A stretch of 32,000 nt of DNA from Candidatus Korarchaeum cryptofilum OPF8 (GTDB lineage Archaea > Korarchaeota > Korarchaeia > Korarchaeales > Korarchaeaceae). Both the position numbers and the translations under genes were made by a program. Within the stretch, counting starts at the first letter, position 1. Each line of letters begins with the position of its first letter. The DNA lies in contig NC_010482.1 in the NCBI RefSeq assembly GCF_000019605.1, positions 690,001-722,000 on the forward strand, given 5' to 3'. Under the pieces are notes generated by a model. That model made no database searches, was not told the origin of the DNA, and was given only the letters and a program-made list of their open reading frames with translations. Shown in pieces: positions 18,051 to 32,000 of the stretch.

Positions 18051-18431
18051 ATGATTATACTAACCCATGGAAAATATAAGGAAAATGCTGGATTTATCTT
18101 CTTTGGAAAAGATAAGGAGTTAAATTTGGTGAGGGAGGGAGACAGAAGGGAGGAGGTATGCACTCCTAATTTCCTAAGTACTCTTTTAGAATGTATTTCT
18201 TTAGATTATATTTCGACCTCTAAGTTAGAAAAAATAATTGAAATAAGTGGGGAGAAAATAAAAGAAAGATCAATAAAAATAGAAAATCGAGTAAAGAAGA
18301 TACATAAAAGAGTGAAAATAAACAATAATGGGAGGATCCAGGGCTATCAGATTGATATCGCCCCTGTATGGCATAAAGGATTATCCACTAACGAGAGGGC
18401 ATGCGGGAGGTGGAAATATGGAAATATTTAA
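18051..18431 (+). CDS. hypothetical small protein, possible first gene of the AT-rich operon
   Basis: A ~126-codon open frame in ~32% GC DNA, where stops are frequent. It overlaps the next start by 14 nt. It is Lys/Glu/Ile-rich, and no motif was recognised. Confidence 0.3.
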   Translation: MIILTHGKYKENAGFIFFGKDKELNLVREGDRREEVCTPNFLSTLLECISLDYISTSKLEKIIEISGEKIKERSIKIENRVKKIHKRVKINNNGRIQGYQIDIAPVWHKGLSTNERACGRWKYGNI

Positions 18432-20520
18432 AAGAATAATAGCACTATTTAGGAAAATTTCTCGCATCTTTCAAAAGAAGGAGTTATATATAGGGGATCT
18501 ATCCAGGGAGCAAAGAAGCGAACCTTCTACTGCCGTAGAGAACATAATAGATAAGGAAGAAGCTCGGGGAGAATTGGAAAAAGAGATTGAGGGTAAGTCT
18601 ATAAGAGAGCTAGAAGAGAGAGTAGAACAGAGTATTCCTGAAGGAAGGAGAAGGAAAAAGCCTCAAAAAAAGAGAGCTCCTACTGAACAGGATATAAAGA
18701 CAAGAAGGACTGTTTATAAAGAACAGAGGGTACACGCGATAGGAAAAGAGGTGAAACTAGGCAAAAAGAGATCTACAGGGAGAGCTAAGAGGCCAAAGTC
18801 ATTAGAGGCAGTTCCAAAGGAAAGAAGAGAGGAAAAATCGGCTCAATCCTCTATAAGAGTGAGAGCGCCATTTGTTGAAATTGATCTTGACAGGGCTAAG
18901 GTTTTTCTCGTGATCCCAAAACAAAGCTTAACGGTAGAAAATTCCTCTAAAAAACAATTGAGTTATAGGGTATCCTTAGATAACGAAGTAGAAAGACCGC
19001 TTCCAGTTGGAATTACCGGTAATGAAGAATATCCAGAAACAGAAGAAGAAAGGATTGAAATAGAAAAACCTATAAAAAATTTTAAGGTTGCCTATCCAGA
19101 AGAGCTTGAAGGTAGGAATTATACTTACGAACATAGGGATGATTCTATTTATACTTTCATCGCTGTTGGAGATGGTCTAGGCAGAATGCACTATCTATAC
19201 GAAGATGGGAACATCAATCCACTTCCTCAAAGAGAAATATGGGTCCTTCTTGAGGAGGATTTTGAGCCCGAGATCGAACCGATTTTAGAGGAGGATAGAT
19301 GGATCTGGGAAAAATATAGGCCATTATATATCGATTTGAGAGATAAAAGTGAATTAGTTATAATAAATAGAAAGTTAAATAAAAGAGAAGCTATACCTTG
19401 TAAATCTACTTTTTCCATTGAAGGCGAAGAGATTATTTATGATGATTTCAGCGATCAATCTCCTATTTTTACGGGTAACAGTATTAAAATAAAAGCTCCA
19501 ACAATAAATGAAGAAGGATGGGTCGTTTATGTTCAAAACAAACAAGATGGTTATAAGATTGTTTCCGATAATTGGTTAGGGAAGGATCCCCTTGAGCTGA
19601 GATTTGACCGTGATCTACCCTGTGAATGCGGGGAATTCCAGGTAGATATCTGTGGGCAAGATGGGAAATCTGTTAACACACTGTTCTTCAGGTATATTCC
19701 ATCTTTGCGATTAAATTATTCGAGGGAACTCATCATCCCAGATCCCAAGAAGGGCCATAAAACAGAGAGAGTTGAGATTTCACTTCCATATGCAGAATAT
19801 TTTGAAATAGAAACTGAAGAGCAAATAAAACCCACCCCGAAAGGATATGAGATCATTTTACCACCGAAAAGAGATGTCTTTAGGTTCTCCATCTTCAAGA
19901 AGAATAAGCCGGAAACTAAAGTAAGCTTCAGAGTAACGGTTCCAAGATTAAAATGGAAGACCTCAAGACATATAGATTGGAGGGATACTCCGCTACGTTT
20001 AGAGAGGGAAGAACTGCTCACTAGCGAAGAACTCTACCTCTATATCAATACGAATAGTTTTCCTAACTATAATATTTCGGCGATACTCGAGGCAAATAAC
20101 CAGAAACTGCAGGAATCAAAGTTTGTTAGAAAGAGAAATATTTACAGCATCTTATTAAACCAATTTTATGATACTATTAAGGAAAGCAAAGGTAGGATTG
20201 TGCTTAAGATTAAAATCCTTAAAAACGAAAGGATCATAGGTGAAAATATTCCCGTTCTATATCTCTCTGAAAAGATAACGCTTAGACCTATCCCGCGAGG
20301 ATCGAGAAAGAGTATGAGACCGATTGTAAGGTGCGGCATGGGCATGAGGGAAGGAAGGGGCTTTAGTAAAGAAGAAATAATCCAGGCTGGGATTAGAATA
20401 GAAGATGCTAAACGATTGAACATTCCGTATGATAAGCATAGGAAGTCAGCACATCCCAAAAATATCGAGATTTTAAGATCGTTAGTTGAAGGTGATAATT
20501 ATGCCGATAGATCCGATTAA
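18418..20520 (+). CDS. ~700-aa orphan protein: basic/acidic disordered N-terminus, beta-rich middle, C-terminal ribosomal-protein-L13e-like module
   Basis: ATG 18418 is preceded by 'GGAGGTGG' 5 nt upstream. The 2.1-kb frame is uninterrupted in AT-rich DNA. The first ~150 aa are K/R/E-rich. The C-terminus reads 'RPIVRCGMGMREGRGFSKEEIIQAGIRIEDAKRLNIPYDKHRKSAHPKNIEILRSL'. The stop lies 20 nt inside the downstream helicase gene. Confidence 0.8.
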   Translation: MEIFKRIIALFRKISRIFQKKELYIGDLSREQRSEPSTAVENIIDKEEARGELEKEIEGKSIRELEERVEQSIPEGRRRKKPQKKRAPTEQDIKTRRTVYKEQRVHAIGKEVKLGKKRSTGRAKRPKSLEAVPKERREEKSAQSSIRVRAPFVEIDLDRAKVFLVIPKQSLTVENSSKKQLSYRVSLDNEVERPLPVGITGNEEYPETEEERIEIEKPIKNFKVAYPEELEGRNYTYEHRDDSIYTFIAVGDGLGRMHYLYEDGNINPLPQREIWVLLEEDFEPEIEPILEEDRWIWEKYRPLYIDLRDKSELVIINRKLNKREAIPCKSTFSIEGEEIIYDDFSDQSPIFTGNSIKIKAPTINEEGWVVYVQNKQDGYKIVSDNWLGKDPLELRFDRDLPCECGEFQVDICGQDGKSVNTLFFRYIPSLRLNYSRELIIPDPKKGHKTERVEISLPYAEYFEIETEEQIKPTPKGYEIILPPKRDVFRFSIFKKNKPETKVSFRVTVPRLKWKTSRHIDWRDTPLRLEREELLTSEELYLYINTNSFPNYNISAILEANNQKLQESKFVRKRNIYSILLNQFYDTIKESKGRIVLKIKILKNERIIGENIPVLYLSEKITLRPIPRGSRKSMRPIVRCGMGMREGRGFSKEEIIQAGIRIEDAKRLNIPYDKHRKSAHPKNIEILRSLVEGDNYADRSD
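20314..20490 (+). other. L13e-like domain (C-terminal ~60 aa of the 18418..20520 product)
   Basis: It matches the conserved core of eukaryotic/archaeal L13e as I recall it: human RPL13 '..[62 protein letters not shown]'. The shared elements are RPIVRC, GRGFS-EE, AGI, I--D-(R/H)R and N---L. Confidence 0.7.
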
Positions 20521-23500
20521 GGTTACACAGAATATTCGCGAGAGCTATATCCGATATTTGACGAGTACTTTCCACCTTAGAGACGAACAATTTCGAAGTA
20601 AATTCCGGCAAGAAGTTGAGGCTTTTTCCTTTATAAAGGGCCCCATTTTAGAGGCAACACCACCTTTCGAAAGAGGATGTCATCTTAAGGATTTAATTAG
20701 AGAAGGGTTGCTCAGCGATAAACTAGAGAGTTTTATTTTTGATGCGATGGATTATTTGCGCAATAATCCACTATACTTACACCAGGAGAAAGCTATTAGA
20801 AAGATAATTAAAGGTAGAAATGTGCTCATTGCCTCCGGTACAAGTAGTGGGAAGACGGAGTGCTTCCTGATACCAATTTATAATCATCTTTTAAGAGAAT
20901 ATGAGGAAGGAAGGCTCACACCAGGAGTAAGGGCTCTTTTGCTCTATCCTATGAATGCATTAGCTAACGATCAGCTGAGAAAGCTGAGAAAAATAGCGAG
21001 AGTGATGGAAGAGAAAATTCCCGAAGTTAAAATAACCTTCGGTAGATATGTCGGCGACACTCCTGAAGCTAAGGGAGATGGATTAGAGAAGTTCAAATTG
21101 ATGAATCCCAAGGAGAAGCCCGTAGAGAGCGAACTTCTTTCGAGAGAAGAGATGAGAGAAAATCCACCTCATATACTAATAACGAATTACGCAATGCTCG
21201 AATATTTACTTTTGAGACCAAAAGACTCGCCTTTCTTTGATGGAGAATACGCGAGAAACTGGAAATTCTTAGTTCTCGATGAAGCCCATATCTATAGCGG
21301 GGCAACGGGAATTGAAATGGCTATGCTCATCCGTCGCTTGAAAGATAGAGTCTGTAAAAATATGGAAGGTGACTTGCAGTGCATCGCGGCAAGCGCAACT
21401 CTTGTTAGGGGGGAGGAGGATTTTGAAAAAGTAGCAGACTTTGCAACTAAGCTTTTTGGAGAAAGATTTGAATGGGATCCAGAGGATAGTGAAAGACAGG
21501 ACATAATTAAGGGAGAAAGAATCAAAATAGAGGGCTCGAAGGCTGAATTTAAGGCATCACTCAATCTATACTTAGAACTAGAAGATAGAATAATTCAAGA
21601 TACTTCCTCTCCTACTCTGGAACAACTGTACAAGACTTGTGAAGAAAATGGTATTCCTAAAAGTATTTTGGATAATTCGAGGGATATTTGCGACAATAAT
21701 CCAAAGAGATTCCTTTACGAAGTTCTTTCAAAAGATGAGATGGCAATAAAACTGAAGTCTCTGCTAGAAGGAGGAGCGAAGGGGATTGATGAATGCGCTA
21801 AATATCTTTTAGAAAAAGATGAGCCCTCAAAGGAAGAATATAGCCAGATAATTAGCCTTATTAATGTATTAGTGTGGGCACGCCCAGATGAGGATTCCTT
21901 ACCTCTTTTACCGGCTCGTTACCATCTATTTGTTCGCGCACCGGAGGGGGTCTTTATATCCTTTTACCCTGAACCGAGGATATTCCTAGAGAGGAGGGAG
22001 CTGACGGATGATGGGTATCCCGTCTTTGAACTCGCTTCTTGCCGACGCTGTGGGCAGGAATATTTAGTCGGAGAGGTCGTAGAGGGTAAATTAAAGCATT
22101 CTTTTGCTGAGGTAGATACTCAGAGGAAGAATAGGTATTTCATGTTATGGGGGGAAGATATTAAACTAAAGGAAGACGAAGATCAGGAAGTAGCAGTTCC
22201 TGAAGAAATTGCTAAAGAAGGAGATGTATGGAAGCTGTGCGTAAAGTGTGGGTCGATATGGAAAGATAAACCTACCTGTAATTGTGACCATGAGAGAGAT
22301 TCCGTAAGGACATTGATCGAAGTAACTCCCAAGGACACAGTTCTTAATAAATGCTACCTATGCGGATTACGCTCCATAGATATTGTTCGCGAATTCATTT
22401 TCCAGAGAGATGCTCCTGCAGCAGTATTAACTACAGCGTTGTACCAAAATCTTCCGAGGGATCACGCAAGGGAGAGAAAAATACTCATCTTCTCGGATAG
22501 TAGACAAGATGCCGCATTTTTTGCTCCTTATCTGGAGTTCACTTATAAAAGGATCTTATTCAGGCGTTTGATAGTTGAAGCCATAAAAGGAAATCGATTA
22601 GAAGATTACAGGCTTGAATCCTTATGTGAGGATGTTCTGCGGCTCGGTGAAAAAAGTAAAGTTTTTGATCCAGCGAAGGATGAGAAAGAAAGGAAAAAAG
22701 AGGTCTGGAAATGGATAATTCAAGAGTTCTGCGGAATCTGGGATAGGAGAAATTCTCTAGAAGGTGTTGGGCTGGTATCATTTATCCTGATATTTCCTGA
22801 AAACTGGAGGCCCATCAAAGAGCTACAAGAACCGCCCTGGAATCTTACAGAGGACGAAGCGAGAGCATTATATCAAACATTGCTCAACTCCATGCGCTTC
22901 AATATGGCTATTACTTTTCCTGATGGACTGAATTCCCAAGATGAGTTCTTTAGCCCAAGGAATAGAGAGTACAAATTCAGAGGGGAAGGCTCCGATACCG
23001 GAAGAGGGATATACTCCTTCATACCATCTCAAGGCAGGACTAATGCAAGACTCGAATATTTGGAAAAGTTATATAAGAAGATTACGGGAAAGGAAGATGA
23101 AAACAATGAATGTAGGGAGCTATTAGGAAAAATATGGGAGGATTTGAGAGATAACTGGGTTGATAGGGGTATACAGAGATTTAGCAACTCGAGAGATGGT
23201 GTCCTTTACAAGCTTGATTATAGATATTGGAGAATAATCCAGCCGAACACCTCTTGGTTCATTTGCGATCGCTGCGGAGTAATTGTACCCTCAAGCGTGC
23301 GGGGAGTCTGCCCGACATTCGGCTGTAATGGAAATCTCATTCCAATAGATAACCAAAAATTTGAAGATCTTGAAAGAAACCATTACCGCTATCTATATAC
23401 TCACTTGGAACCCATAGTAATGGCTCCCCATGAGCATACAGCACAGCTCACCACCGATCATGCCTCAAACATTCAGCAAAAGTTTATAAGAGGGGATATC

Positions 23501-25333
23501 AATATCTTGAGTTGCTCAACTACATTCGAGCTAGGAGTGGATATTGGAGAATTAGAAGCTATCTTTTTACGTAATGTCCCACCAGAACCCTCAAACTATA
23601 TTCAGCGCGCAGGAAGAGCAGGAAGAAGACTCGGTACCATAGGATTTATTCTGACTTTCGCCCAACTTCGTTCTCATGACCTTGCATACTTTAAAGAGCC
23701 AGAAAAAATGATTGAGGGAAGAATAAAGCCACCTATCATTGAACTCAAGAATGAGAAGATAATTTCCCGTCATCTCTACTCCATTGCAATTGCGGATTTC
23801 TTCAGAAAATTTAGCGATTATTTCGGGGATGCGGACTCGTTTTTCAGATTTGAAGAAGGTATTTCAGGCACAGAGAGAATAAAGGAGTATCTTCTCACAA
23901 AGCCCGAATCCATCCTGAAATCATTAAAAAGAGTCATACCTGAGGACTTGCAGAAAGTTTTTGGAGTTGATGATTGGAAATGGGTTGATGGTCTTGTGGG
24001 TAAAGAAGGTGTTCTTACAAAAGCAGACGAGAAAATAAGGGACGAATTTACCAGGCTTAAGGAATTCTATAGATTAAAGGAGGAAGAATGGAATAGTGCC
24101 CAAGATCAGCAAAAAAGAAACAAAATACATGCAGATATGAACTGGGCATACAAAAGAAAGGAGACTATTAAGAGAAAACAGCTCATAGATTTCTTAGCAT
24201 CTCATGCAGTTATTCCCAAGTATGGTTTTCCAGTGGATGTTGTTGAATTGGACATCCTATCACACCAGGACGCTGCTAAAAATATCCAGCTAGAAAGAGA
24301 CTTGAGCATAGCTATTTCAGAATTCGCGCCAGGGAGTCAGGTAGTTGCAAATGGGTATATTTGGGAGAGTGAAGGGTTGAAAGTCGTGAGAAATAGGACA
24401 TGGCCGATTTACTGGTATGCTATCTGCAGTGAATGCAATAAATTTTTCATAAAAAGTGGAACAATAGAAGAAAACCCACCCTCCTTCTCATGCGATGTTC
24501 ATGGACCCATCTCACGGGGGGATATACATAGATTTGTCACGCCAATATTTGGCTTTGTGACCTCTAAGGATTTTGAGCCAAAGAAACCGGGTGAATCGAG
24601 ACCAAAGCATGAGTTTACCACAAGACCATACTTCTTCAGTTATGAGAAACCAGAGGAAAGAATATTCACTATTGGCAGATTTAAGATTAAATGTAAGTAC
24701 TCTTCCGATGGAGAATTAGCCGTTATCTGTAAGGGGAAGAAGGGTGGATTTTGGATATGTTTTGATTGCGGTGCGGCTTTCCCGGAGAGAAAAAGAAAGC
24801 ATAAAACGCCTTACGGGATGGACTGCACATCACCTTTGAAAGGCCCGTTTCACCTTGGACATACTTTTAAGACTGACGTGCTTTCTATTTCATTTGAAGA
24901 GCCAAATATAAATGAAAGTTATATTAGAGAGATATTTAGATCAAAGTCTATTAAGATAAATAATAAGTTTGTAGAAAGCTTCTGGCTATCCCTCTTATAT
25001 GCAGTACTAGAGGGCGCAAGCCAGGCCCTCGGGATAAAAAGAGAGGATCTGAATGGATGCCTCCATTCATCTGAGGGCAGAATTATGCTAATATTGTTTG
25101 ATAATGTTCCTGGTGGAGCTGGGCATGTAAAACGAATAATGAGCGAGAGAAACTTGTATGAGGTTCTCAAGGGTGCCCTAGCCCGAGTCAAGAATTGCGC
25201 ATGTGGGCTTGAGACCAGTTGTTATGGATGCCTCCGAAGTTATGAGAATCAATTCTGTCATGACCTACTGAAGAGAGGCGTTGTCTGGGAGTTTCTTGAA
25301 AGAAATCTGGAGGGGGATCAGTTACGTAGATAG
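20501..25333 (+). CDS. ~1610-aa DEAH-box SF2 helicase with multiple zinc ribbons and C-terminal DUF1998 (MrfA-type Zn-binding) domain; DrmA+DrmB / DruE-like
   Basis: ATG 20501 follows a 'GGTGA' SD. Motif I is 'ASGTSSGKTE' (~20831), Ia 'YPMNALANDQ', II 'VLDEAH' (~21275), III 'ASATL', IV-like 'IFSDSRQDAAF' (~22490), 'HTAQL..STTFELGVDIGELEAIF' and VI 'QRAGRAGRR'. CxxC pairs lie at ~22039, 22237, 22354, 23266/23311, 24424 and 24760. The C-terminus 'LFDNVPGGAGH...CACGLETSCYGCLRSYENQFCHDLLKRG' is the DUF1998 signature. Confidence 0.9.
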   Translation: MPIDPIKVTQNIRESYIRYLTSTFHLRDEQFRSKFRQEVEAFSFIKGPILEATPPFERGCHLKDLIREGLLSDKLESFIFDAMDYLRNNPLYLHQEKAIRKIIKGRNVLIASGTSSGKTECFLIPIYNHLLREYEEGRLTPGVRALLLYPMNALANDQLRKLRKIARVMEEKIPEVKITFGRYVGDTPEAKGDGLEKFKLMNPKEKPVESELLSREEMRENPPHILITNYAMLEYLLLRPKDSPFFDGEYARNWKFLVLDEAHIYSGATGIEMAMLIRRLKDRVCKNMEGDLQCIAASATLVRGEEDFEKVADFATKLFGERFEWDPEDSERQDIIKGERIKIEGSKAEFKASLNLYLELEDRIIQDTSSPTLEQLYKTCEENGIPKSILDNSRDICDNNPKRFLYEVLSKDEMAIKLKSLLEGGAKGIDECAKYLLEKDEPSKEEYSQIISLINVLVWARPDEDSLPLLPARYHLFVRAPEGVFISFYPEPRIFLERRELTDDGYPVFELASCRRCGQEYLVGEVVEGKLKHSFAEVDTQRKNRYFMLWGEDIKLKEDEDQEVAVPEEIAKEGDVWKLCVKCGSIWKDKPTCNCDHERDSVRTLIEVTPKDTVLNKCYLCGLRSIDIVREFIFQRDAPAAVLTTALYQNLPRDHARERKILIFSDSRQDAAFFAPYLEFTYKRILFRRLIVEAIKGNRLEDYRLESLCEDVLRLGEKSKVFDPAKDEKERKKEVWKWIIQEFCGIWDRRNSLEGVGLVSFILIFPENWRPIKELQEPPWNLTEDEARALYQTLLNSMRFNMAITFPDGLNSQDEFFSPRNREYKFRGEGSDTGRGIYSFIPSQGRTNARLEYLEKLYKKITGKEDENNECRELLGKIWEDLRDNWVDRGIQRFSNSRDGVLYKLDYRYWRIIQPNTSWFICDRCGVIVPSSVRGVCPTFGCNGNLIPIDNQKFEDLERNHYRYLYTHLEPIVMAPHEHTAQLTTDHASNIQQKFIRGDINILSCSTTFELGVDIGELEAIFLRNVPPEPSNYIQRAGRAGRRLGTIGFILTFAQLRSHDLAYFKEPEKMIEGRIKPPIIELKNEKIISRHLYSIAIADFFRKFSDYFGDADSFFRFEEGISGTERIKEYLLTKPESILKSLKRVIPEDLQKVFGVDDWKWVDGLVGKEGVLTKADEKIRDEFTRLKEFYRLKEEEWNSAQDQQKRNKIHADMNWAYKRKETIKRKQLIDFLASHAVIPKYGFPVDVVELDILSHQDAAKNIQLERDLSIAISEFAPGSQVVANGYIWESEGLKVVRNRTWPIYWYAICSECNKFFIKSGTIEENPPSFSCDVHGPISRGDIHRFVTPIFGFVTSKDFEPKKPGESRPKHEFTTRPYFFSYEKPEERIFTIGRFKIKCKYSSDGELAVICKGKKGGFWICFDCGAAFPERKRKHKTPYGMDCTSPLKGPFHLGHTFKTDVLSISFEEPNINESYIREIFRSKSIKINNKFVESFWLSLLYAVLEGASQALGIKREDLNGCLHSSEGRIMLILFDNVPGGAGHVKRIMSERNLYEVLKGALARVKNCACGLETSCYGCLRSYENQFCHDLLKRGVVWEFLERNLEGDQLRR

Positions 25334-25389
25334 GCAACTTAACGAACTATTTACCCTCCACCGAAGAAATGATCTGTATAGCAAGATAA

Positions 25390-25492: not shown

Positions 25493-26740
25493 TCAAGTTG
25501 ATCCGTAAGAGAGGCTAGCGAGCCTCTTCAGTAAATCCGGAGACTTCGTGTGTATGGGCTTCACATCCTTGGGCCTCACTACGCTCATTATACGCGTCAG
25601 CTGATAGGGATAGTAGTGGCCCGATGCCCTCATCCTGTAGTGCTGCACCCCCATGGCGGAGAGCCAGTTAGCTATCACATCGTATTCCAACGCCTCCTCT
25701 ACCTCAGGCTCCGGCTCAGAGAGTACCGCCACGGGGCTCCTCATAGCAGGGCGGAAGCTCGGATCCCTCAGTAAATCTACTATCTCCCTGTGGGAGGTAA
25801 GTATGAAAGAGTTCCCTCCTATCTCCTCAAGGGAAACCTTCTCCCTCATCGTCGGATATCTCACGAAATCCTCAACAAGATTTATCTCAACGGGGGGCTC
25901 TGGTATCCTCTCCAGGAGCTTAGCTATTTGAGCCGATGCAACGTAGCAATCGAATCCGAGCTCCTTCGCTATCTCGAGAATGAGGTAAGCGTACTCGAAG
26001 TCGAGACCATGGAGTGTGAATAGCATGGGAGCTTGAGAGGATTTTTGGGAGATAGCGATCCTCCTTATCATATTTGCGACATCATCCGGTGAGATAGGTG
26101 TCCTATTCGACCCTACATTCGTCCCCTCTATTATGAGAGTGTCCACTCTCACATCCGGATTCTCCCCCAAGTAAGTGAGGAGATCCTCGCCTATTAGCTC
26201 GAGGAACCTCTCCTCCCCGAGGAAGCCGTCGACTCTGAAGTCCCCTGTGTAAAGAATCGTCCCCTCTCTGCCGAAGTACAGGAATGCGTATGCTGGATAG
26301 GCGCTGTGGGATACTGGAAGTGGAATCACACCGTTTTCATCCTCTTCTAAAGGTTTTATCTCCCTTATCTCCAGGAAATATCTCCCTGCAACTAGCTGGA
26401 GCCATGAGGAGGAGTTCTCCCATCTCTCCTTCATATCCTCGTATACCGAGAGGCTCGGCAGGTATACGCGAGTCTCCGAGGGTATGTTGTGCAGGAGCCC
26501 CAGATGATCGAGGTGCATGTGCGATATGTATATGCCGCTGGCGTCCATGTACCATTCCTGCTTCGGGATGACCCCGAGTCTCCTGAGCTCAGCTATCCCC
26601 TGAGGCGTTACCTGCATAGAGTAATACCTGCTCATTATATCGAATCTGATCCCCTGATCGAATACAAGAGTTTTATCTCCATCCCTTATCCTTACAAAAT
26701 TCCCACCTATGCTGTTCTCCCCGGACAGTATCTCTATCAA
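25493..26740 (-). CDS. metallo-beta-lactamase-fold nuclease, RNase J-like (MBL/beta-CASP)
   Basis: The 'HMHLDHLG' (HxHxDH) motif is present. The RNase J-like N-terminus is 'IEILSGENSIGGNFVRIRDGDKTLVFDQG'. Also present are 'TLIIEGTNVG' and 'RASGHYYP'. The preferred start is TTG 26740, which overlaps the SNF2 stop and has GGAGG 7 nt upstream. The ORF-track ATG at 26836 adds a non-homologous 32-aa extension lying inside the SNF2 gene. Confidence 0.75.
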   Translation of the reverse strand: MIEILSGENSIGGNFVRIRDGDKTLVFDQGIRFDIMSRYYSMQVTPQGIAELRRLGVIPKQEWYMDASGIYISHMHLDHLGLLHNIPSETRVYLPSLSVYEDMKERWENSSSWLQLVAGRYFLEIREIKPLEEDENGVIPLPVSHSAYPAYAFLYFGREGTILYTGDFRVDGFLGEERFLELIGEDLLTYLGENPDVRVDTLIIEGTNVGSNRTPISPDDVANMIRRIAISQKSSQAPMLFTLHGLDFEYAYLILEIAKELGFDCYVASAQIAKLLERIPEPPVEINLVEDFVRYPTMREKVSLEEIGGNSFILTSHREIVDLLRDPSFRPAMRSPVAVLSEPEPEVEEALEYDVIANWLSAMGVQHYRMRASGHYYPYQLTRIMSVVRPKDVKPIHTKSPDLLKRLASLSYGST

Positions 26741-29673
26741 GGCTTCCCCTCCTTCGGCCTCAGGATGTACCTCCTCTCCACCCTCTCGAATGCCTCCCAG
26801 TTCATGGTGCTGACCGGATCCCTGAACCTGATCCATTCGGGATCGGTCCCTATATTGTAAACTATGTAGAGCCAGTACCTTTCCCTCTCCCTCTCAGCGA
26901 GCTCTGCTTCGTAAGAAGTCAGCTCCCCGTATACTTCAGGCCCCAGATGGCCCTTCACCTCTATTATCCTAACTTCCTTCGTGGATGGATCGACGCTCCT
27001 TATATCGTAGTGCTCCTCCTCCGGGACTACCTCGGGGATCCTCCCCTCATCCCTCTCCACCTTCATGACGATCTCAAGGGCCTTCTTCTCTACCTCCTTT
27101 TTGACTTCCTCCGGGATATCTAAGCTTCCCTTAGGGGGCTCGATGAACTGTATGGATCCCAGATCGTTGGAAGTCCCTATATCGAGGTCCTCAGCTTTCA
27201 TCCAGTTATCCGGACCCCTGAGTCCCTCCTCCTGCAACTTCCTGGAGTAGTTGATGATCGGTGAGAGGAGTTCCCTACAAGATTTCTGGAATTCATTTAT
27301 CACTATGGCCCTCAATTCCACGGAGATATCCGAGTTAGGTATCTCGGCTATTCCAACTAAATTCGAGATCGCTGATGAGATTAAGTCAATGAGTTCGGAT
27401 CCTCTTATGACCTTCTTTTTCTTTAGATCTATCCCGATGGGCTCCTTGTAGAGCAAACCCCAGCTCCTCCTATCCCTTATCTCCACTAGTTTTATGAGCA
27501 CCCTCCCATTTGGCCCGTAGGCCACTAGATTCACCGGAGATGAACTCTTACACTCCCCGAGAAGCATGCCATAGATTGTCCTTAAGCTTGTTACCGCTAC
27601 GGGCATCTCCGATCCCCTGATAACCTTTAGCTCATCCCCTTCCGAGAGAACCCTCAACCCGAGGAAGCCGGATGCTGACTTGAGGAGCTTCTTCATCGAA
27701 TCCATCAAGTCATGATGACTCTCGAATCCGATCTGGGCTATCGTATTTATTATCGCTTCCCTAGTTTTTTGAGCGTACAGCACCCCCTTGGACTTCAGTT
27801 CCCTCTCTATCTCCTGCTTGGCAGCTATTATGGACTCTATTAGGTCGCTCAGGCCCTTCTCATCTTTCCTCAGATAGGTCTCTATTAATTTAGCTTCAGT
27901 AACCTTGAAGAACCTTTTCTTCCCCTTCTCACTCTTCGTCACGACGTAAGGAGGCAGCTTCGTGAGATCCTCCGTTTCCGTATAGAGGATCACTTCCTGC
28001 CCGGTTATAGGCCTCGCGCCCAAATCCGCTCTCTTCAGGTTGAGGAGCTTCTCGTAGATGGATCTAAGCGCAGTGCTATCGGCTTTATTCGCCATGAAGA
28101 GGGTGTATATCTCAACCTCCCTCCTCTGCCCGAGCCTCCACACCCTGCCTATCCTCTGCTCCAGTTTTATCAGGCTCCAGGGGACCTCGTAATTTATCAG
28201 GATATGAGCTACCTGCAGGTTCAGGCCCTCAGCCGCGACATCCGTAGCTATGAGAACTCTAGCCCTAGGATCCCTCTCAAAAGCTCTTCTTATTTCCATG
28301 AATTTCTTCTCATCAGCCGTTTCATCCGAACTGAGTCTGAGGATCGAGCCTTCAGGCCACCCCTCATTCAGGAGCTTTTTCATTATGTAGTCGAGCGTGT
28401 CCTTATACTCGGTGAAGACTATGACCTTCGAATCCTCCTTCACCTCATCCAGCAGGGAAATTAGAGCTTTTAGTTTACTGTCTCCCTCCCTCATTATATC
28501 CCTCGCCATCTCAACGAGCTCCCTCATCTCCTCCCTATCCCTCTCGGACATGAGGGAGGATGTGGCATCCAGGAACTCCTCCATGATCTCCTCGGGATCT
28601 CTTCCCGGATACTCCTGATCCTCATATCCGGTTCCCAAGAGCGTCTCCACGCTGTGCATCAGTTCCTCCAAATTCTCGTGGGCTGTCCTCCTCAACAGCA
28701 GTCTCTCGAGAGTCGTCACAGCGGCATAGGGGCTGGAGGATGCCCTCTTGAATATGAGAACTAATAGGAGGGGGAGTGCCTTCTTGCTGAGCTCCTCCTT
28801 CTCATAGGCGAGATCTCTGAGTTTTGACTTCAGGAAATTGAGAAGTCTATTTATGAACTCCTCTTCATCCTTCCTCACCTTTATAACTGTCGCGTAAAAT
28901 CTGGCCATTGGGAATATCTCTTTTCCCTCGTATATCTTGTTTATCTCCTCCTTCGTCCTCCTGAAGATTATAGCTCCATGCGTCAGCTCATAGAACTGCT
29001 TCCTATCCAACGATCTCCAATCCTCCAGGTAGGGATCAAGGAGCCGAAGCCTCGATATGTAATCTGCGGGATCCCCTCTGTGAGGTGTCGCTGAGAGGAA
29101 TATCACATTCCTTCTGGGCTTTCTCTCTATAAGCTCCCTTCCTACCTCTTTGAATCTCTTCGTCTTCATCCCAAGCTTATGGGCTTCATCTACAATTATT
29201 ATATCCCATGGGACATCCAGAACTTCTTTTATCCTTTTCTCCCTTTTTATGAAGTCCATTGATGAGAGATAGTATCCATCAGGGAACCCCTGCTTTTTTA
29301 GATACTCTATGTTATCCCTCTCTATCTGATTAACTTTACCTATGCCCATCCTCTCGAGCTCCTTCCTCCACTGCGGTATGAGGACCCTGGGGACTATTAT
29401 CAACGCCTTGGATACTCTACCCACTCCTTCCATATATCTGGAGATCGCTAGGGCCGTTATCGTCTTTCCAAGCCCTATCTCATCCCCTATGAGGACTCTG
29501 ACGGGGTTCCTGAGAGCGAGTCTAGCGAGGACTTCGCACTGATGGAGGTAGTGCTGAGGGGGGTCCTCCGCGGAGGTCCGGAGATACGGGTATATCAGGG
29601 GGTGATAGCCCAGCTCATTCAAGAATCCTGAGATGAAGCCGATTACCCCATCCTTGAGTTTCATTACTATCAC
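26737..29673 (-). CDS. SNF2-family helicase with C-terminal DUF3883-like / PD-(D/E)xK-like domain
   Basis: Motif I is 'LIGDEIGLGKTI', II 'IIVDEAHKLG' and III 'FLSATP'. V is 'LIATDVAAEGLNLQ' and VI 'PWSLIKLEQRIGRVWRLGQ'. The C-terminus reads 'HYDIRSVDPSTKEVRIIEVKGH....YWLYIVYNI' (D...EVK, ~26790-27010). The track start is GTG 29673, and ATG at 29664 (MKLKDG) is equally plausible. Confidence 0.9.
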   Translation of the reverse strand: MIVMKLKDGVIGFISGFLNELGYHPLIYPYLRTSAEDPPQHYLHQCEVLARLALRNPVRVLIGDEIGLGKTITALAISRYMEGVGRVSKALIIVPRVLIPQWRKELERMGIGKVNQIERDNIEYLKKQGFPDGYYLSSMDFIKREKRIKEVLDVPWDIIIVDEAHKLGMKTKRFKEVGRELIERKPRRNVIFLSATPHRGDPADYISRLRLLDPYLEDWRSLDRKQFYELTHGAIIFRRTKEEINKIYEGKEIFPMARFYATVIKVRKDEEEFINRLLNFLKSKLRDLAYEKEELSKKALPLLLVLIFKRASSSPYAAVTTLERLLLRRTAHENLEELMHSVETLLGTGYEDQEYPGRDPEEIMEEFLDATSSLMSERDREEMRELVEMARDIMREGDSKLKALISLLDEVKEDSKVIVFTEYKDTLDYIMKKLLNEGWPEGSILRLSSDETADEKKFMEIRRAFERDPRARVLIATDVAAEGLNLQVAHILINYEVPWSLIKLEQRIGRVWRLGQRREVEIYTLFMANKADSTALRSIYEKLLNLKRADLGARPITGQEVILYTETEDLTKLPPYVVTKSEKGKKRFFKVTEAKLIETYLRKDEKGLSDLIESIIAAKQEIERELKSKGVLYAQKTREAIINTIAQIGFESHHDLMDSMKKLLKSASGFLGLRVLSEGDELKVIRGSEMPVAVTSLRTIYGMLLGECKSSSPVNLVAYGPNGRVLIKLVEIRDRRSWGLLYKEPIGIDLKKKKVIRGSELIDLISSAISNLVGIAEIPNSDISVELRAIVINEFQKSCRELLSPIINYSRKLQEEGLRGPDNWMKAEDLDIGTSNDLGSIQFIEPPKGSLDIPEEVKKEVEKKALEIVMKVERDEGRIPEVVPEEEHYDIRSVDPSTKEVRIIEVKGHLGPEVYGELTSYEAELAERERERYWLYIVYNIGTDPEWIRFRDPVSTMNWEAFERVERRYILRPKEGKP
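26738..26752 (-). promoter_or_regulatory. translational-coupling junction (SD + overlapping stop/start)
   Basis: The reverse strand reads 'GGAGGggaagccTTGA'. The SNF2 TGA (26739..26737) overlaps the nuclease TTG (26740..26738) by 2 nt, and GGAGG sits at 26752..26748. Confidence 0.5.
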
Positions 29674-29791: not shown

Positions 29792-32000
29792 TCAGCCTTT
29801 ATGACCCTTCCTCCTCACTAGGAGTTTGAAGATAGCTCTTCCATTCAGTTGAGATAGCACCGCTATTTTCTGGTCATCCAACACCACATGATTCTCGAGC
29901 TCTATGCTTCCATTTAAATGCGTCCTCAATCCGAGCTGGCTCGCTTGCCTTGATATTTCATCTAACTTCTGGACTAGGAACCTCGCTATATCTATGCTCA
30001 CCCCCTCCATTGAGAAGCGTATATTCCCCCCGAACTCAGCATCGATATTCACTTTAGCCTTCATGCCCAGCTTGCTCACATTTTCTATCGCTATTTTCAG
30101 CGAAATTAGATCGGAACTACTTATTGATAGGAGCTTCTCTCCAGAGATGCTGCTATCTATCTTATCTACGTCTCTCTCCTCCTCAGGGCTCAAGATGACT
30201 ATGGAGACGGATTCCTCCTTGAGCAGCCCGTCCGAGCTCACTGCCCTTATCTTCAGGGGAAACCTCCCCACCCTCCTGGGCGTTACCTCCCATGAGACCT
30301 TCATCGGAGGCCTGCCTTTCCCCTGACTGAGCTCCCCTTCCTCTACCTGGAGCTTTATCTCCTCCGAATAATCTTCTACGGGTTCTATGGATATCTCGAA
30401 TACTGCCTTCTCTCCCTGGTTCAATTCCACATGCTTCGGTTTCACATCGAGAACGAAGCCTCTCTTCAGCTCCTCCTCCCTCTTCTCTATCACCCCGGCC
30501 CTCAAGACCTCTTCCCATCCTTCCTGCTTCACCAAGTCCTCGAGAGGTATTCTCTCCCCTCCAATCTCTACTTCGTACCAGATCCTCTTCGTTACTCCGT
30601 TCTTCCGCACACCGCTTTTGGAGAGGAGCTCCTCCTTCATCTGCTCCGCAGCCCTCTTCCAGGGGAGTATCACTGCTGTATCCCTCAATCCCTTCGGCCT
30701 CTCAGCGCCTGAGGATCCGATTCTCTTCCAGTAGAGTCCCCCCTCTATCTTAATCCCTATATCCAGTTTATCCAGGCCCTCGAGGAGGGCTTCCTCAACC
30801 GCTTTTTGCGTAGTGAAGGGAGCCGCTGTATTCGTGTAGAATACATCCATGATTTCCTTGAACTCGAACTGCCTGTCTCCATTCACTAAATCCCATCCGA
30901 GATTGTCCTTAAGAAAATCGGAGATATCCTTGAATTCCAGTTTTGTCCTGAGCTTCGGTCCAGTTCTCGGGTCTTTGAGCGCCGCTTCCACCTGCGATAT
31001 GAGGTAGGAGGAAGGGCTCGCTTCCACGATCTTTATATCGTTCCCCTCCTTCCCCTTGTATGGGTAAGCGACCTTCGTTAGGAGGGAGAGTATCTGCTGC
31101 ATCAAGTATCCTTTGTTTTCATTAATGTAACTCTCCAACTTATTACTCTGGATCTTTATTATGTCCTTATCCGTGTAGTACTCGCTCAGGTTTTCCTTTA
31201 TTTCTTCAGCTGCTTCTATCTTCGCTACATATCTGAGCTCATCCTCTAAGTTCGATTTCGATGGGAATACTACTGCTATCGTATTTGCATATGTTCTCTT
31301 TCCTCCTCCGGGTTCTCTCAGTATTATATTCCTCAGCTCCTCCTCACTAACATCCGGTTTTACCATTACGACTAACCTCAACGATTTCTCGTCCCTCAGT
31401 TCTCTCCCTATGTCATCTCCATATCCCAGTGTAATCACGTTATTACTGTCAAATACCTCGCCTGATGGCTTCTCTCCCTTCTTGCGGGTTCCGGATGTGT
31501 CTCCTTTAACATGACTTTTTACATAATTGACCAGCTTCCTGTGGAGGTCGAGGATCGCGCCTCTCAGCATCTCATCAGCTCTCCTCTCTACGTACTCCAA
31601 GACCGATGGATAGGGCGTGAACCAGAACCTGTTCTCCTCCCCGGTGAAGTGGGGGAGTTTGACCAGCATCTCCTCTACCGTGGCCTCTATATCTGGTGGC
31701 TGAAGATCGCTTGATGAAAAGCTCTCGGGATCGTAGGTCATCAAAGCTATGTCCTTCAGATCTGGGAATACTTTTAGAGGCTCTTTGAATGTTTCATAGG
31801 TGTAGGTCTTCAATAATACGACTGTAGCTATCTTGAGGGCGAGCGCTGGCTTTGAGCAGTTCGCGATAGAGCCGAGGCTTCCATCCTCGGATACTATGTC
31901 CCTGCTCGCGACATCCCTGAAATTCTTGTAGCTCTCTGTGAGGACCAGGTTCCTTATATCCTTATCCCTCAGGTCTATGTGCCACGGCATTATGAACTCC
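29792..32000 (-). CDS. large protein (>=732 aa; frame still open at window edge), tentatively the non-ATPase part of a DUF499/BrxC-like protein plus an Ig-like beta-sandwich region
   Basis: The 2.2-kb frame is uninterrupted, and the three codons upstream of ATG 31990 (EFI) contain no stop. 'RFWFTPYPSVLEYVERRA' and 'GGGKRTYANTIAVVFPSK...LRYVAKIEAAEEI' resemble conserved DUF499 segments as I remember them. No Walker A is present in the visible part. Residues ~520-620 ('FVLDVKPKHVELNQGEKAVFEISIEP...FPLKIRAVS') look like a beta-sandwich. Confidence 0.5.
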   Translation of the reverse strand, partial: EFIMPWHIDLRDKDIRNLVLTESYKNFRDVASRDIVSEDGSLGSIANCSKPALALKIATVVLLKTYTYETFKEPLKVFPDLKDIALMTYDPESFSSSDLQPPDIEATVEEMLVKLPHFTGEENRFWFTPYPSVLEYVERRADEMLRGAILDLHRKLVNYVKSHVKGDTSGTRKKGEKPSGEVFDSNNVITLGYGDDIGRELRDEKSLRLVVMVKPDVSEEELRNIILREPGGGKRTYANTIAVVFPSKSNLEDELRYVAKIEAAEEIKENLSEYYTDKDIIKIQSNKLESYINENKGYLMQQILSLLTKVAYPYKGKEGNDIKIVEASPSSYLISQVEAALKDPRTGPKLRTKLEFKDISDFLKDNLGWDLVNGDRQFEFKEIMDVFYTNTAAPFTTQKAVEEALLEGLDKLDIGIKIEGGLYWKRIGSSGAERPKGLRDTAVILPWKRAAEQMKEELLSKSGVRKNGVTKRIWYEVEIGGERIPLEDLVKQEGWEEVLRAGVIEKREEELKRGFVLDVKPKHVELNQGEKAVFEISIEPVEDYSEEIKLQVEEGELSQGKGRPPMKVSWEVTPRRVGRFPLKIRAVSSDGLLKEESVSIVILSPEEERDVDKIDSSISGEKLLSISSSDLISLKIAIENVSKLGMKAKVNIDAEFGGNIRFSMEGVSIDIARFLVQKLDEISRQASQLGLRTHLNGSIELENHVVLDDQKIAVLSQLNGRAIFKLLVRRKGHKG

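What the first reader, a model, noticed from the sequence alone, without database searches (positions are those of the whole stretch)
18051..32000. Two helicase modules converge tail-to-tail, giving DISARM-like gene content without a visible methylase or PLD nuclease
The DrmA+DrmB-like fused helicase (ending at 25333) and the SNF2 (DrmD-like) operon (ending at 25493) converge across a 160-bp gap. Class 1 DISARM combines an SNF2 helicase, a helicase, a DUF1998 protein, a methyltransferase and a PLD nuclease. Here SNF2, helicase and DUF1998 are present. An MBL nuclease sits where a nuclease would be expected. An L13e-tailed orphan and a DUF499-like protein are extras, and no methyltransferase is in the window. 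The two halves differ strongly in base composition, so they may be independently acquired neighbours (a defence island) rather than one system.
Basis: inference. Interest (0 to 1): 0.65.

Follow-up and report, generated by a model that had tools for sequence, protein, structure and literature searches.

The report
Two separate neighbouring defence systems
The two converging helicase gene clusters in this Korarchaeum-like archaeal window are two unrelated anti-virus systems side by side (a horizontally acquired Druantia-type pair and a resident methylase-based BREX-related operon), not one DISARM-like system, though each carries a component not described for its family in the papers searched.

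Summary
The sequence features are real. Two operons converge across 159 bp, the GC3 contrast is strong (0.34-0.39 against 0.60-0.64), and every reported domain is present. The DISARM-like reading is not supported.

**Left half (18051-25333, + strand).** The 1610-aa helicase is a compact DruE of Druantia (PADLOC 4.9e-188, DrmA only 1e-14). The "L13e-tailed orphan" belongs to a family whose members directly precede a DruE gene. This held in 14 of 14 other archaeal and bacterial genomes and in 2 further tail variants. None of them carries the right-hand genes.

**Right half (25493 to beyond 32000, - strand).** This is a DUF499-centred BREX-related Type-1 (Hma-like) operon: DUF1156 methyltransferase, DUF499 ATPase, SNF2 helicase with a PD-(D/E)xK domain, and a beta-CASP nuclease. 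The "missing" methyltransferase lies just past the window edge. The four-gene order recurs in every informative lineage (27/27, 17/17, 15/15). DruE is adjacent only in the window's own lineage (1/19).

A 98%-identical strain has lost the partner and two-thirds of DruE but keeps the right operon.

**Possibly new.** The DruE partner shows no detectable sequence similarity to DruH. It is predicted as an array of Ig-like domains with interchangeable nucleic-acid-binding tails. The beta-CASP gene is a conserved fourth gene of this operon.

The parts
18051..18431 (+). Small 126-aa ORF of unknown function. It is the first gene of the left cassette and overlaps the next gene by 14 nt. It is lineage-specific.
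   Evidence: Gene call on the identical contig L001. No Pfam, NCBIfam or PADLOC hit. Conserved only in Korarchaeia relatives: L021 71%, L003 40%, absent from the other 13 genomes. GC3 is 0.34.
18418..20520 (+). 700-aa DruE partner. It has an N-terminal helix, a disordered K/E-rich linker, a roughly 480-aa all-beta core predicted as an array of Ig-like sandwiches (with a CECGEFQxDIC motif), and an eL13-like C-terminal tail.
   Evidence: Homologues and alignment. AlphaFold model core pLDDT 85-92. Foldseek hits to titin Ig and complement MG domains. L13e tail. It directly precedes DruE in 14/14 genomes plus 2 tail variants. No similarity to DruH detected.
20501..25333 (+). 1610-aa compact DruE-type (YprA/MrfA family) SF2 helicase. 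It has DEAD, YjiV_N, Helicase_C and MZB/DUF1998 domains and no C-terminal PLD or Vsr nuclease domain. It overlaps the partner gene by 20 nt.
   Evidence: PADLOC DruE1 4.9e-188 and DruE3 7.5e-164. Pfam domains. PDB 9tu7 (2108-aa helicase, inferred from its length and from DruH entry 9tud to be E. coli DruE) 4.3e-74 and YprA 6znp 1e-20. Motifs SGKT, DEAH, QRAGRAGR and several CxxC present. 56-90% identical to the helicase downstream of every partner homologue.
25334..25492 (.). 159-bp convergent intergenic gap between the two stop codons.
   Evidence: Coordinates. No intrinsic-terminator-like site, tRNA, Rfam family or flanking repeat. GC is 0.39.
25493..26740 (-). 415-aa MBL/beta-CASP (RNase J-like) nuclease. 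It is the last gene of the right operon and overlaps the SNF2 stop by 4 nt.
   Evidence: Pfam Lactamase_B 2e-4 and NCBIfam RNase J subfamily 4e-10. HxHxDH intact and invariant in 20 homologues. PDB EF2904 1e-18 and RNase J 4e-8. SNF2 gene directly upstream in 54/56 distant loci, or 27/27 lineages. 99% identical to a Candidatus Korarchaeum cryptofilum protein.
26737..29664 (-). 975-aa RapA/BrxHII-like Swi2/Snf2 helicase with a C-terminal NOV_C (PD-(D/E)xK) nuclease domain. This is the HmaA-like effector.
   Evidence: Pfam SNF2-rel_dom, Helicase_C and NOV_C 5.6e-20. PADLOC DrmD 5e-64, BrxH 1e-56, HmaA 5e-55. Below the NCBIfam DrmD cut-off. PDB RapA 2e-27. Motifs GLGKT, DEAH and D...EVK present.
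29792..32000 (-). C-terminal 736 codons of a 1109-aa DUF499 AAA+ ATPase (HmaC-like). The gene continues beyond the window end. The DUF1156 N6-methyltransferase gene lies just upstream of it, outside the window.
   Evidence: Pfam DUF499 1.5e-286 for the window part, and E 0 / 1378.8 bits for the full length from L001. No stop before the window edge. PADLOC HmaC 4.8e-45. Walker A GGGKT at residue 77, outside the window. Methyltransferase: PADLOC MTase_II 7e-166 and HmaB 1e-37; DUF1156 1e-11 and DPPY in the full-length copy of L020.

Best explanation
The region holds two independent, adjacent anti-virus systems in a defence island of a Korarchaeum cryptofilum-like archaeon.

**System A (18051-25333, + strand).** This is a horizontally acquired Druantia-type cassette. 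A compact, nuclease-less DruE helicase is translationally coupled to an upstream 700-aa partner. The partner occupies the position of DruH in type III Druantia. By analogy with published type III Druantia, DruE would load on exposed single-stranded or forked viral DNA and unwind it 3'-to-5' (inferred). The partner, an Ig-like scaffold with a nucleic-acid-binding tail, would hold or sense the unwound strand, as DruH does (inferred).

**System B (25493 to about 36.1 kb in window numbering, - strand).** This is a resident DUF499-centred BREX-related Type-1 (Hma-like) restriction-modification-like operon. The DUF1156 N6-adenine methyltransferase would mark host DNA. The DUF499 AAA+ ATPase would assemble and scan. 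The SNF2 helicase fused to a PD-(D/E)xK nuclease would attack unmarked DNA. A conserved fourth gene, a beta-CASP/RNase J-like nuclease, probably extends the damage or degrades nucleic acid from the nick. All these roles are inferred from homologues.

The tail-to-tail arrangement is an accident of insertion, not a functional unit.
For: **Identity of A.**
- DruE HMMs score 4.9e-188 and 7.5e-164. Domains are YjiV_N and MZB. The best PDB hit is the 2108-aa helicase 9tu7, taken to be E. coli DruE.
- Partner and DruE are the only conserved pair in 14/14 genomes spanning archaea and bacteria. The pair also holds for the uS17-tail and zinc-finger-tail variants.
- Gene overlaps are 14 and 20 nt.
- The partner is predicted as an Ig-like array. 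Published DruH also has Ig-like domains and binds ssDNA (10.64898/2026.05.12.722862; 10.64898/2026.05.13.724758).
- Tails swap between eL13, Alba, uS17 and zinc-finger-like modules.

**Identity of B.**
- DUF499 E 0, 1378.8 bits for the full-length protein. DUF1156 plus DPPY in the methyltransferase. SNF2 plus NOV_C with D...EVK. HmaA/B/C hits of 5e-55, 1e-37 and 5e-45.
- The architecture matches Type-1 BREX-related systems (PMC12839542). HmaA nickase defence has been shown experimentally (PMC11232893).
- The four-gene order recurs: SNF2 54/56, DUF499 34/34, methyltransferase 24/24 loci. By 80%-identity lineage the counts are 27/27, 17/17 and 15/15.
- No conserved gene follows the MBL gene.

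**Independence.**
- B genes are next to the partner in 0/14 genomes, apart from one weak 26%/99-aa MBL-like hit in L013.
- DruE follows distant MBL homologues in 0/32 loci, or 1/19 lineages counting the window's own.
- GC3 is 0.34-0.39 for A, against 0.60-0.64 for B and 0.60-0.65 for three of four other host genes.
- A 98%-identical strain (L020) carries a 7.2-kb deletion of window 16455-23675. It removes the partner and the first ~1058 residues of DruE and leaves B intact.
Against: - No experiment exists for either system in this organism, so all mechanisms are transferred from bacterial homologues.
- The partner shows no detectable sequence similarity to DruH, so its DruH-like role rests on gene position and a predicted fold class only.
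- Pairwise, the helicase is about as far from E. coli DruE (322 bits) as from the ARMADA helicase ArmC (305 bits). Placing it in the Druantia clade therefore rests on HMM scores and gene context, not on a tree.
- Neighbouring defence systems can synergise, as published for Druantia III with ARMADA II and Zorya II. Lack of co-occurrence rules out obligate coupling but not cooperation.
- The metagenome loci come mainly from related hot-spring samples, so the counts are not fully independent. I collapsed them to 35 lineages to allow for this.
Confidence: 0.85

Rival explanations
1. One composite DISARM-like or ARMADA-like system. The YprA-family helicase, the SNF2 helicase, the methyltransferase and a nuclease work as a single unit despite being split into two convergent operons.
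For: The gene content superficially matches. DISARM class 1 has DrmA/B, DrmD (SNF2), a methyltransferase and a nuclease. ARMADA has a YprA helicase, a BrxHII-like SNF2 and a methyltransferase, and occurs in archaea (PMC12458937). The SNF2 protein's best PADLOC hit is a DrmD model at 5e-64. The arrangement is kept in three Korarchaeal lineages (L017/L018, L021).
Against: - The helicase matches DruE far better than DrmA (e-188 against e-14).
- The SNF2 protein is below the DrmD cut-off (233 against 610 bits).
- The methyltransferase is the DUF1156 type. It has no tblastn hit to the ARMADA PglX-like ArmB.
- There is no PLD protein.
- The operons lie on opposite strands.
- The helicase's conserved partner is the 700-aa protein, not SNF2 or a methyltransferase (14/14).
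- B occurs without any YprA helicase in 18 of 19 lineages.
- GC3 is discordant.
- L020 lost A but kept B.
Confidence: 0.04
2. The two systems have independent origins but cooperate. For example, nicks or unwound ends made by the SNF2-nuclease and beta-CASP nuclease on unmethylated DNA could give the ssDNA or forked substrate that loads DruE. The pair would then protect more than the sum of its parts.
For: Published synergy between co-located Druantia III, ARMADA II and Zorya II through shared DNA intermediates (PMC12458937, PMC13192584). HmaA is a nickase (PMC11232893). DruE engages exposed ssDNA or forked DNA (10.64898/2026.05.13.724758). The adjacency persists in lineages down to 84-88% nucleotide identity (L021).
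Against: There is no co-occurrence outside this lineage. One strain has discarded A. Nothing in the sequence links the two systems: there are no shared regulators or repeats.
Confidence: 0.15
3. The left cassette is a DNA-repair module of the MrfA/YprA type rather than an immune system.
For: DruE belongs to the YprA/MrfA family, whose other main branch is DNA repair (PMC12458937). PDB YprA 6znp scores 1e-20.
Against: - Near full-length matches to DruE-specific models, plus the YjiV_N domain.
- Patchy distribution across archaea and bacteria, with 56-90% helicase identity between domains of life, implies recent transfer.
- Foreign codon composition.
- Presence/absence varies between strains.
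- Neighbours include restriction-modification and other helicase defence genes.
- There is no MrfB-like exonuclease partner.
Confidence: 0.04

Closest known systems
Druantia type III (DruH + DruE), especially the compact III-B or 'III-like' branch
   Same: A two-gene core in which an unannotated partner lies directly upstream of, and overlaps, a large DruE helicase. The DruE has DEAD, YjiV_N, Helicase_C and MZB domains. It lacks PLD domains, as described for III-B. The partner is predicted to contain several Ig-like domains, as in the solved DruH. No methyltransferase is involved.
   Different: The partner is 700 aa, not about 1119 aa, and has no detectable sequence similarity to DruH. The evidence is negative with PADLOC, NCBIfam and PDB chain 9tud, hhalign gives 0.2% probability, and the Pfam families PF27205/PF27201 are absent. 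It replaces DruH's globular N-terminal domain with a helix plus disordered linker. It replaces DruH's C-terminal domain with an eL13-like tail (Alba, uS17 or zinc-finger-like in relatives). It occurs in archaea. An extra 126-aa gene is present in Korarchaeia.
DUF499-centred BREX-related Type-1 system, also called Hma (HmaA/B/C)
   Same: A DUF1156 N6-adenine methyltransferase, a DUF499 AAA+ ATPase, and a RapA/BrxHII-like Swi2/Snf2 helicase with a C-terminal PD-(D/E)xK nuclease, all co-directional in one operon. This type is described as common in archaea.
   Different: A fourth, tightly coupled beta-CASP/MBL nuclease gene is conserved in every informative lineage sampled here. It is not mentioned in the family description (main text and held supplements of PMC12839542). 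The helicase has only about 44 residues before the motor, so the N-terminal Tudor domain described for the family is probably missing. No HEPN fusion was detected on the ATPase.
MANTIS (Gao_RL; BREX-related Type-2)
   Same: A DUF499 ATPase, a methyltransferase and an SF2 helicase-nuclease. It offers a mechanistic model in which ATPase-dependent hemimethylation is coupled to restriction by the helicase-nuclease.
   Different: MANTIS has the small co-regulator MtsB and a PLD nuclease on the helicase. Here there is no room for such a gene inside the operon, and the nuclease is PD-(D/E)xK plus a separate beta-CASP enzyme. The PADLOC Gao_RL-type models score lower than the Hma models.
DISARM class 1
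   Same: The same broad ingredients are spread over the region: a YprA-family helicase with DUF1998, an SNF2 helicase, a methyltransferase and a nuclease.
   Different: The helicase is DruE-type. The SNF2 protein is below the DrmD threshold. There is no PLD DrmC. The methyltransferase is DUF1156-type and tied to DUF499. The genes lie in two convergent operons of different composition that do not co-occur elsewhere.
ARMADA (YprA helicase + BrxHII-like SNF2 + PglX-like methyltransferase)
   Same: It combines a Druantia-like YprA helicase with a RapA-like SNF2 helicase and a methyltransferase, and is known from archaea.
   Different: ARMADA genes are co-directional in one operon and the methyltransferase is PglX/YeeA-like. 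Here the YprA helicase has its own partner, the SNF2 protein belongs to a DUF499 operon, and the methyltransferase shows no similarity to ArmB.

Membership tests
DISARM class 1 | DrmA helicase and DrmB (DUF1998) as the system's YprA-type component | tested here: not met
   PADLOC DrmA scores only 1e-14 against DruE at 4.9e-188 for the same protein. DUF1998/MZB is present, but as part of a DruE architecture.
DISARM class 1 | DrmD SNF2 helicase | tested here: not met
   NCBIfam DISARM_DrmD scores 232.8 bits against a cut-off of 610, and DrmD_b 132 against 950. BrxH and HmaA models score about equally in PADLOC.
DISARM class 1 | DrmC PLD nuclease and a DrmMI methyltransferase in the same operon as the helicases | tested here: not met
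   No PLD protein is present. The methyltransferase is DUF1156-type, linked to DUF499. The helicases lie on opposite strands.
ARMADA | [quoted passage not shown] | tested here: not met
   The strands are opposite. Co-occurrence is 0/14 and 1/19 lineages. The methyltransferase has no tblastn hit to E. coli ArmB. ArmC scores 350 bits on DruE models against 626 for the window helicase.
Druantia type III | DruE helicase (YprA family with DruE-specific domains) | tested here: met
   PADLOC DruE1 4.9e-188 and DruE3 7.5e-164. YjiV_N and MZB domains. PDB 9tu7 at 4.3e-74. No phylogenetic tree was built.
Druantia type III | A single partner gene directly upstream of druE that is strictly co-inherited with it | tested here: met
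   The partner is followed by DruE in 14/14 genomes and 2/2 extra tail variants, and no other gene is conserved.
Druantia type III | The partner is a DruH homologue (STY4851/ECs_5259 family; Pfam PF27205 and PF27201) | tested here: not met
   PADLOC gives no hit at E<=10 and NCBIfam gives none. The partner profile does not hit DruH chain 9tud in the PDB at E<=1. hhalign of the partner core against a 21-sequence DruH family gives 0.2% probability. A DruH HMM finds none of 119 partner-family proteins searched. The precomputed DruH Pfam families are absent from the 120 partner homologues listed.
Druantia type III | The partner has the DruH fold (an array of Ig-like domains that binds ssDNA) | tested here: inconclusive
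   The model shows an all-beta core whose best matches are Ig and macroglobulin domain arrays. Published DruH has four to six Ig-like domains. A direct superposition on 9tud could not be run.
BREX-related Type-1 (Hma) | DUF499 AAA+ ATPase | tested here: met
   Pfam DUF499 E 0, 1378.8 bits, over profile positions 2-1022 of 1024. PADLOC HmaC 4.8e-45. Walker A GGGKT present.
BREX-related Type-1 (Hma) | N6-adenine methyltransferase with an N-terminal DUF1156 domain | tested here: met
   DUF1156 at 1e-11 and a DPPY motif in the 985-aa copy of the 98%-identical strain L020. PADLOC MTase_II 7e-166 and HmaB 1e-37 on the copy from the identical contig L001. The gene lies outside the window.
BREX-related Type-1 (Hma) | Swi2/Snf2 helicase with a C-terminal active PD-(D/E)xK nuclease | tested here: met
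   SNF2-rel_dom, Helicase_C and NOV_C at 5.6e-20. A D...EVK motif is present. HmaA scores 4.9e-55. RapA is the best PDB relative. Catalytic activity was not tested.
BREX-related Type-1 (Hma) | Absence of the Type-2 marker (the small extra gene, written DUF3780 in PMC12839542 and DUF3870 in the MANTIS preprint, plus a PLD helicase) and of the Type-3 markers (PglZ, iSTAND) | tested here: met
   The four genes abut, with a 4-nt gap, a 127-nt gap and a 4-nt overlap, leaving no room for another gene. No PLD or PglZ hit was found. The MBL gene is the only addition.

The most novel reading that the evidence does not exclude
The 700-aa protein may define a new, cross-domain class of DruE co-factor, in effect a new Druantia subtype. 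In it an Ig-like scaffold carries interchangeable RNA-binding modules borrowed from ribosomal proteins (eL13 here, a whole uS17 in others), from Alba, or from zinc fingers. If those tails bind RNA, rRNA or ribosomes rather than ssDNA, this Druantia variant would sense infection through RNA or the translation apparatus. Its eL13 tail inside bacterial genomes would record archaea-to-bacteria transfer of an immune gene.
Probability: 0.2. Interest if true: 0.7.

Novelty: new variant of a known kind. Interest (0 to 1): 0.45.

Why it matters
**Annotation.** Gene content alone can mimic DISARM or ARMADA when a Druantia-type cassette lands next to a DUF499/Hma operon. A methyltransferase can also look "missing" purely because of a window edge.

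**Druantia biology.**
- DruE pairs with at least three partner families that share no detectable sequence similarity: DruH, a 1069-aa Clostridium protein, and the family described here.
- The family here is small, with 132 representatives among 1.84 billion proteins.
- It spans archaea and bacteria, and its helicase is unusually well conserved (56-90% identity).
- It carries swappable nucleic-acid-binding tails, including ribosomal-protein domains.
- This gives a natural experiment on what the still unexplained DruH-type partner does.

**BREX-related systems.** The conserved beta-CASP gene is a candidate second effector nuclease for BREX-related Type-1 systems in thermophilic archaea.

Tried and rejected
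- **First contig look-up.** An exact-protein look-up using the GTG-start SNF2 ORF found nothing. The ATG start worked.
- **DruH homology.** I tested it six ways, all negative: PADLOC at E<=10, NCBIfam, a PDB sequence search that includes DruH chain 9tud, hhalign against a single DruH, hhalign profile against profile, and a DruH HMM against partner-family representatives.
- **Clostridium partner.** It was compared with the window partner. Only one weak local match appeared (E 0.043, probability 1.2%), which I treat as not significant.
- **Bridging search.** An exhaustive profile search looked for sequences linking the partner family to DruH. It gave 132 hits and none matched DruH.
- **Druantia versus ARMADA by pairwise BLAST.** This could not separate the two placements of the helicase (322 against 305 bits). 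No tree was built.
- **Signs of a mobile element around the low-GC cassette.** I found no tRNA, Rfam family, terminator-like site, flanking direct repeat or tandem repeat of note. The partner core found no relative in viral contigs.
- **Literature.** No paper links L13e with Druantia, and no paper links DUF499/Hma with an MBL or beta-CASP gene.
- **Small ORF.** The 126-aa ORF gave no hit in any library.


Full report

Yes. ORF listing and gene calls from a metagenome contig with 0 mismatches to window 16737-32000 give three overlapping + strand genes. These are 18051-18431 (126 aa), 18418-20520 (700 aa) and 20501-25333 (1610 aa). Three - strand genes follow: 25493-26740 (415 aa), 26737-29664 (975 aa) and 29792 to beyond the window end.

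The stop codons face each other across 25334-25492, which is 159 bp. That gap contains no terminator-like hairpin, tRNA, Rfam family or notable repeat.

The reported domains are all there:
- DEAD, Helicase_C and MZB/DUF1998 in the 1610-aa protein.
- SNF2, Helicase_C and NOV_C in the 975-aa protein.
- Weak MBL hits with RNase J-like similarity in the 415-aa protein.
- DUF499 (1.5e-286) in the truncated last gene.
- An L13e-like tail on the 700-aa protein (Pfam 3.9e-6, NCBIfam 4.7e-14, eL13 chains in the PDB at about 1e-3).

The compositional contrast is strong. GC3 is 0.34-0.39 for the three left genes. It is 0.60-0.64 for the right genes and 0.60-0.65 for three of the four other host genes checked (the beta-helix protein gene at 618-2768 is 0.53).

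The organism is a close relative of Candidatus Korarchaeum cryptofilum, because the MBL protein is 99% identical to one of its proteins.

**2. The right half is a complete BREX-related Type-1 (Hma-like) operon, and its methyltransferase lies just outside the window.**

The reading frame of the DUF499 gene has no stop before base 32000. On contig L001 the full protein is 1109 aa and matches DUF499 over profile positions 2-1022 of 1024 (E 0, 1378.8 bits).

Directly upstream lies a methyltransferase gene. It scores PADLOC MTase_II 7e-166, HmaB 1e-37 and DUF1156_MTase 2e-18. In the 98%-identical strain L020 the full 985-aa protein carries an N-terminal DUF1156 domain (1e-11) and a DPPY motif.

The DUF499 protein hits HmaC (4.8e-45) and the SNF2 protein hits HmaA (4.9e-55). 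The SNF2 protein is RapA-like. It ends in a NOV_C domain with a D...EVK PD-(D/E)xK signature.

This is the tripartite core that Rakesh and Krishnan define as the DUF499-centred BREX-related Type-1 system, equivalent to PADLOC's Hma (PMC12839542; PMC8565338). Its HmaA helicase-nickase has been shown to defend against phage T4 (PMC11232893). The related Type-2 system, MANTIS, has been dissected biochemically (bioRxiv 10.64898/2026.09.23.753747).

The SNF2 protein fails the NCBIfam DISARM_DrmD cut-off (233 against 610 bits).

**3. The MBL gene is a conserved fourth gene of this operon.**

A metagenome scan with an alignment of 20 MBL homologues returned 80 loci. I scored them by tblastn with the window proteins.

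Among homologues below 80% identity:
- An SNF2 gene lies directly upstream in 54 of 56 informative loci.
- DUF499 is present in 34 of 34.
- The methyltransferase is present in 24 of 24.
- The order is always methyltransferase, ATPase, helicase, MBL.

Collapsed to lineages at 80% MBL identity, the counts are 27/27, 17/17 and 15/15. No gene downstream of MBL is conserved in 32 loci.

The HxHxDH motif is invariant. The nearest solved relatives are EF2904 and RNase J.

I found no mention of an MBL or beta-CASP component in the main text or held supplements of the family description, nor elsewhere in the searchable library. This makes it a candidate clade-specific addition. Its role as a second nuclease acting after the helicase-nickase is inference.

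**4. The left half is a Druantia-type cassette.**

The 1610-aa helicase matches the PADLOC DruE models over almost its whole length (DruE1 4.9e-188, DruE3 7.5e-164). DrmA reaches only 1e-14.

Precomputed Pfam adds the DruE-specific YjiV_N domain. The best solved relative is a 2108-aa helicase (9tu7, 4.3e-74), which I take to be E. coli DruE from its length and the adjacent DruH entry 9tud. YprA follows at 1e-20.

Walker A (SGKT), DEAH, motif VI and several CxxC pairs are intact. The protein ends with the MZB domain. It therefore lacks the PLD or Vsr domains of type III-A, I and II DruE, like the compact III-B or "III-like" branch (PMC12458937; 10.64898/2026.05.13.724758).

**5. The "L13e-tailed orphan" is not an orphan.**

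It has well over 100 homologues in archaea and in bacteria. The archaea include Methanodesulfokora (67%), Aenigmatarchaeota, Asgard lineages, Thermoplasmatales and Archaeoglobus. The bacteria include Spirochaetes, Bacteroidales, Verrucomicrobia, WOR-3, Aquificaceae, Acidobacteriota and Ignavibacteriaceae.

A scan of one genome per species found 14 loci. In all 14 the gene is immediately followed by a DruE gene 56-90% identical to the window's. These two are the only conserved neighbours. None of the 14 loci has an SNF2/NOV_C, DUF499 or DUF1156 gene.

Two additional variants checked by exact look-up behave the same way.

An exhaustive profile search of 1.84 billion representative proteins found only 132 members, so this is a small, mobile family.

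**6. What the partner is.**

The AlphaFold model built on 24 sequences has these parts:
- A confident N-terminal helix (residues 2-26).
- A disordered K/E-rich linker.
- An all-beta core at about residues 146-620, with pLDDT 85-92.
- A small helical tail.

Foldseek matches the core to arrays of Ig-like and macroglobulin domains such as titin and complement C3, with low global TM-scores as expected for a flexible multi-domain chain.

Two 2026 preprints show that DruH is a monomer built around several Ig-like domains. It has no catalytic domain and binds ssDNA between an Ig domain and its C-terminal domain.

I recovered E. coli DruH from an O157 chromosome and built a 21-member DruH alignment. 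No sequence test connects the two families:
- PADLOC, NCBIfam and the PDB (which holds DruH as 9tud) give nothing.
- hhalign profile against profile gives 0.2% probability.
- A DruH HMM finds none of 119 partner-family proteins searched.
- The DruH Pfam families PF27205 and PF27201 annotate every DruH homologue but none of the 120 partner homologues listed.

A Clostridium butyricum plasmid carries yet another unrelated 1069-aa partner in front of a compact DruE.

I therefore call the window protein a positional and probably architectural analogue of DruH, not a demonstrated member of the family.

**7. A swappable tail.**

The C-terminal module varies within the family:
- eL13-like in the window and many relatives, including bacterial ones.
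- Alba in P0272.
- An entire uS17-like sequence in P0117 and P0118.
- Cys/His-rich zinc-finger-like tails in P0052, P0054 and P0072.

All are nucleic-acid-binding modules. This supports a role in holding nucleic acid, parallel to the DNA-binding C-terminal region of DruH. That is inference.

**8. Are the two halves one system?**

No evidence says so, and several lines say no:
- The partner-DruE pair occurs without the right-hand genes in 14/14 genomes.
- The right operon occurs without DruE in 32/32 distant loci, or 18 of 19 lineages.
- The left cassette has foreign codon composition, whereas the right operon matches the host.
- In strain L020, 7.2 kb (window 16455-23675) is deleted. This removes part of an ABC transporter, the 126-aa ORF, the partner and the first ~1058 residues of DruE. 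The right operon stays intact.

The adjacency is kept only in close relatives (L017, L018, L021).

ARMADA was considered as a rival. It combines a YprA helicase, a BrxHII-like SNF2 helicase and a PglX-like methyltransferase. It fails on strand arrangement, methyltransferase type (no similarity to ArmB) and co-inheritance.

Cooperation between neighbours, as published for Druantia III with ARMADA II and Zorya II, cannot be excluded.

**9. Verdict.**

The DISARM-like interpretation is not supported.

Both systems belong to known kinds, and each carries a component I did not find described for its family. For Druantia it is a non-DruH partner family with ribosomal-protein-type tails. For the BREX-related Type-1 system it is a conserved beta-CASP nuclease. 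All mechanistic statements are transferred from bacterial homologues and remain untested here.

Noticed in passing
window 4114-8331 (- strand), with the small ORF at 8489-8887 upstream: A third large helicase of 1405 aa. It has an N-terminal RNase_T/DEDD exonuclease domain plus DEAD and Helicase_C, and hits the PADLOC DpdF (3e-64) and PsyrT (8e-56) models. It is probably another defence gene, so the window looks like a defence island.
   Followed up: partly
L020 13059-13066, corresponding to window 16455-23675: A 98%-identical sister strain has a 7.2-kb deletion. It removes part of the ABC transporter, the 126-aa ORF, the partner and about two-thirds of DruE. The two flanks overlap by 8 bp at the junction, which suggests microhomology-mediated loss.
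   Followed up: partly
P0117/P0118 (locus L100 696-2927), P0272 (L103 6047-10159), P0052 (L102 7001-9514): Members of the partner family carry different C-terminal tails in place of eL13: a whole uS17-like sequence, an Alba domain, or Cys/His-rich zinc-finger-like repeats. The uS17 and zinc-finger variants are still followed by DruE. For the Alba variant the contig ends before the downstream gene.
   Followed up: partly
L097 3783-11668 (Clostridium butyricum plasmid pNPD4_2): A compact DruE (1559 aa, 31.6% identical to the window's) is preceded by an overlapping 1069-aa protein. That protein has no hit to DruH, to the window's partner family, or to any Pfam or PADLOC model. It looks like a third kind of DruE partner.
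   Followed up: partly
window about 8900-13400: A stretch with few long ORFs. It includes a 134-aa fragment matching only the N-terminal part of pyruvate:ferredoxin oxidoreductase (POR_N, 9951-10355), possibly a pseudogene. Synteny with strains L020 and L021 breaks at about 11500-12350, so this is a variable region.
   Followed up: no
window 18051-18431 and 17701-17865: Two small ORFs of unknown function lie at the left edge of the low-GC cassette. The 126-aa ORF overlaps the partner gene and is kept only in Korarchaeia (71% and 40% identity). The 54-aa ORF lies on the opposite strand, just outside the block shared with L021.
   Followed up: partly
L100 3126-7901: A full-length DruE gene (67% identical to the window's) was not called as a gene in the public collection's annotation of this contig. 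Look-ups that rely on called genes can therefore miss DruE neighbours.
   Followed up: yes
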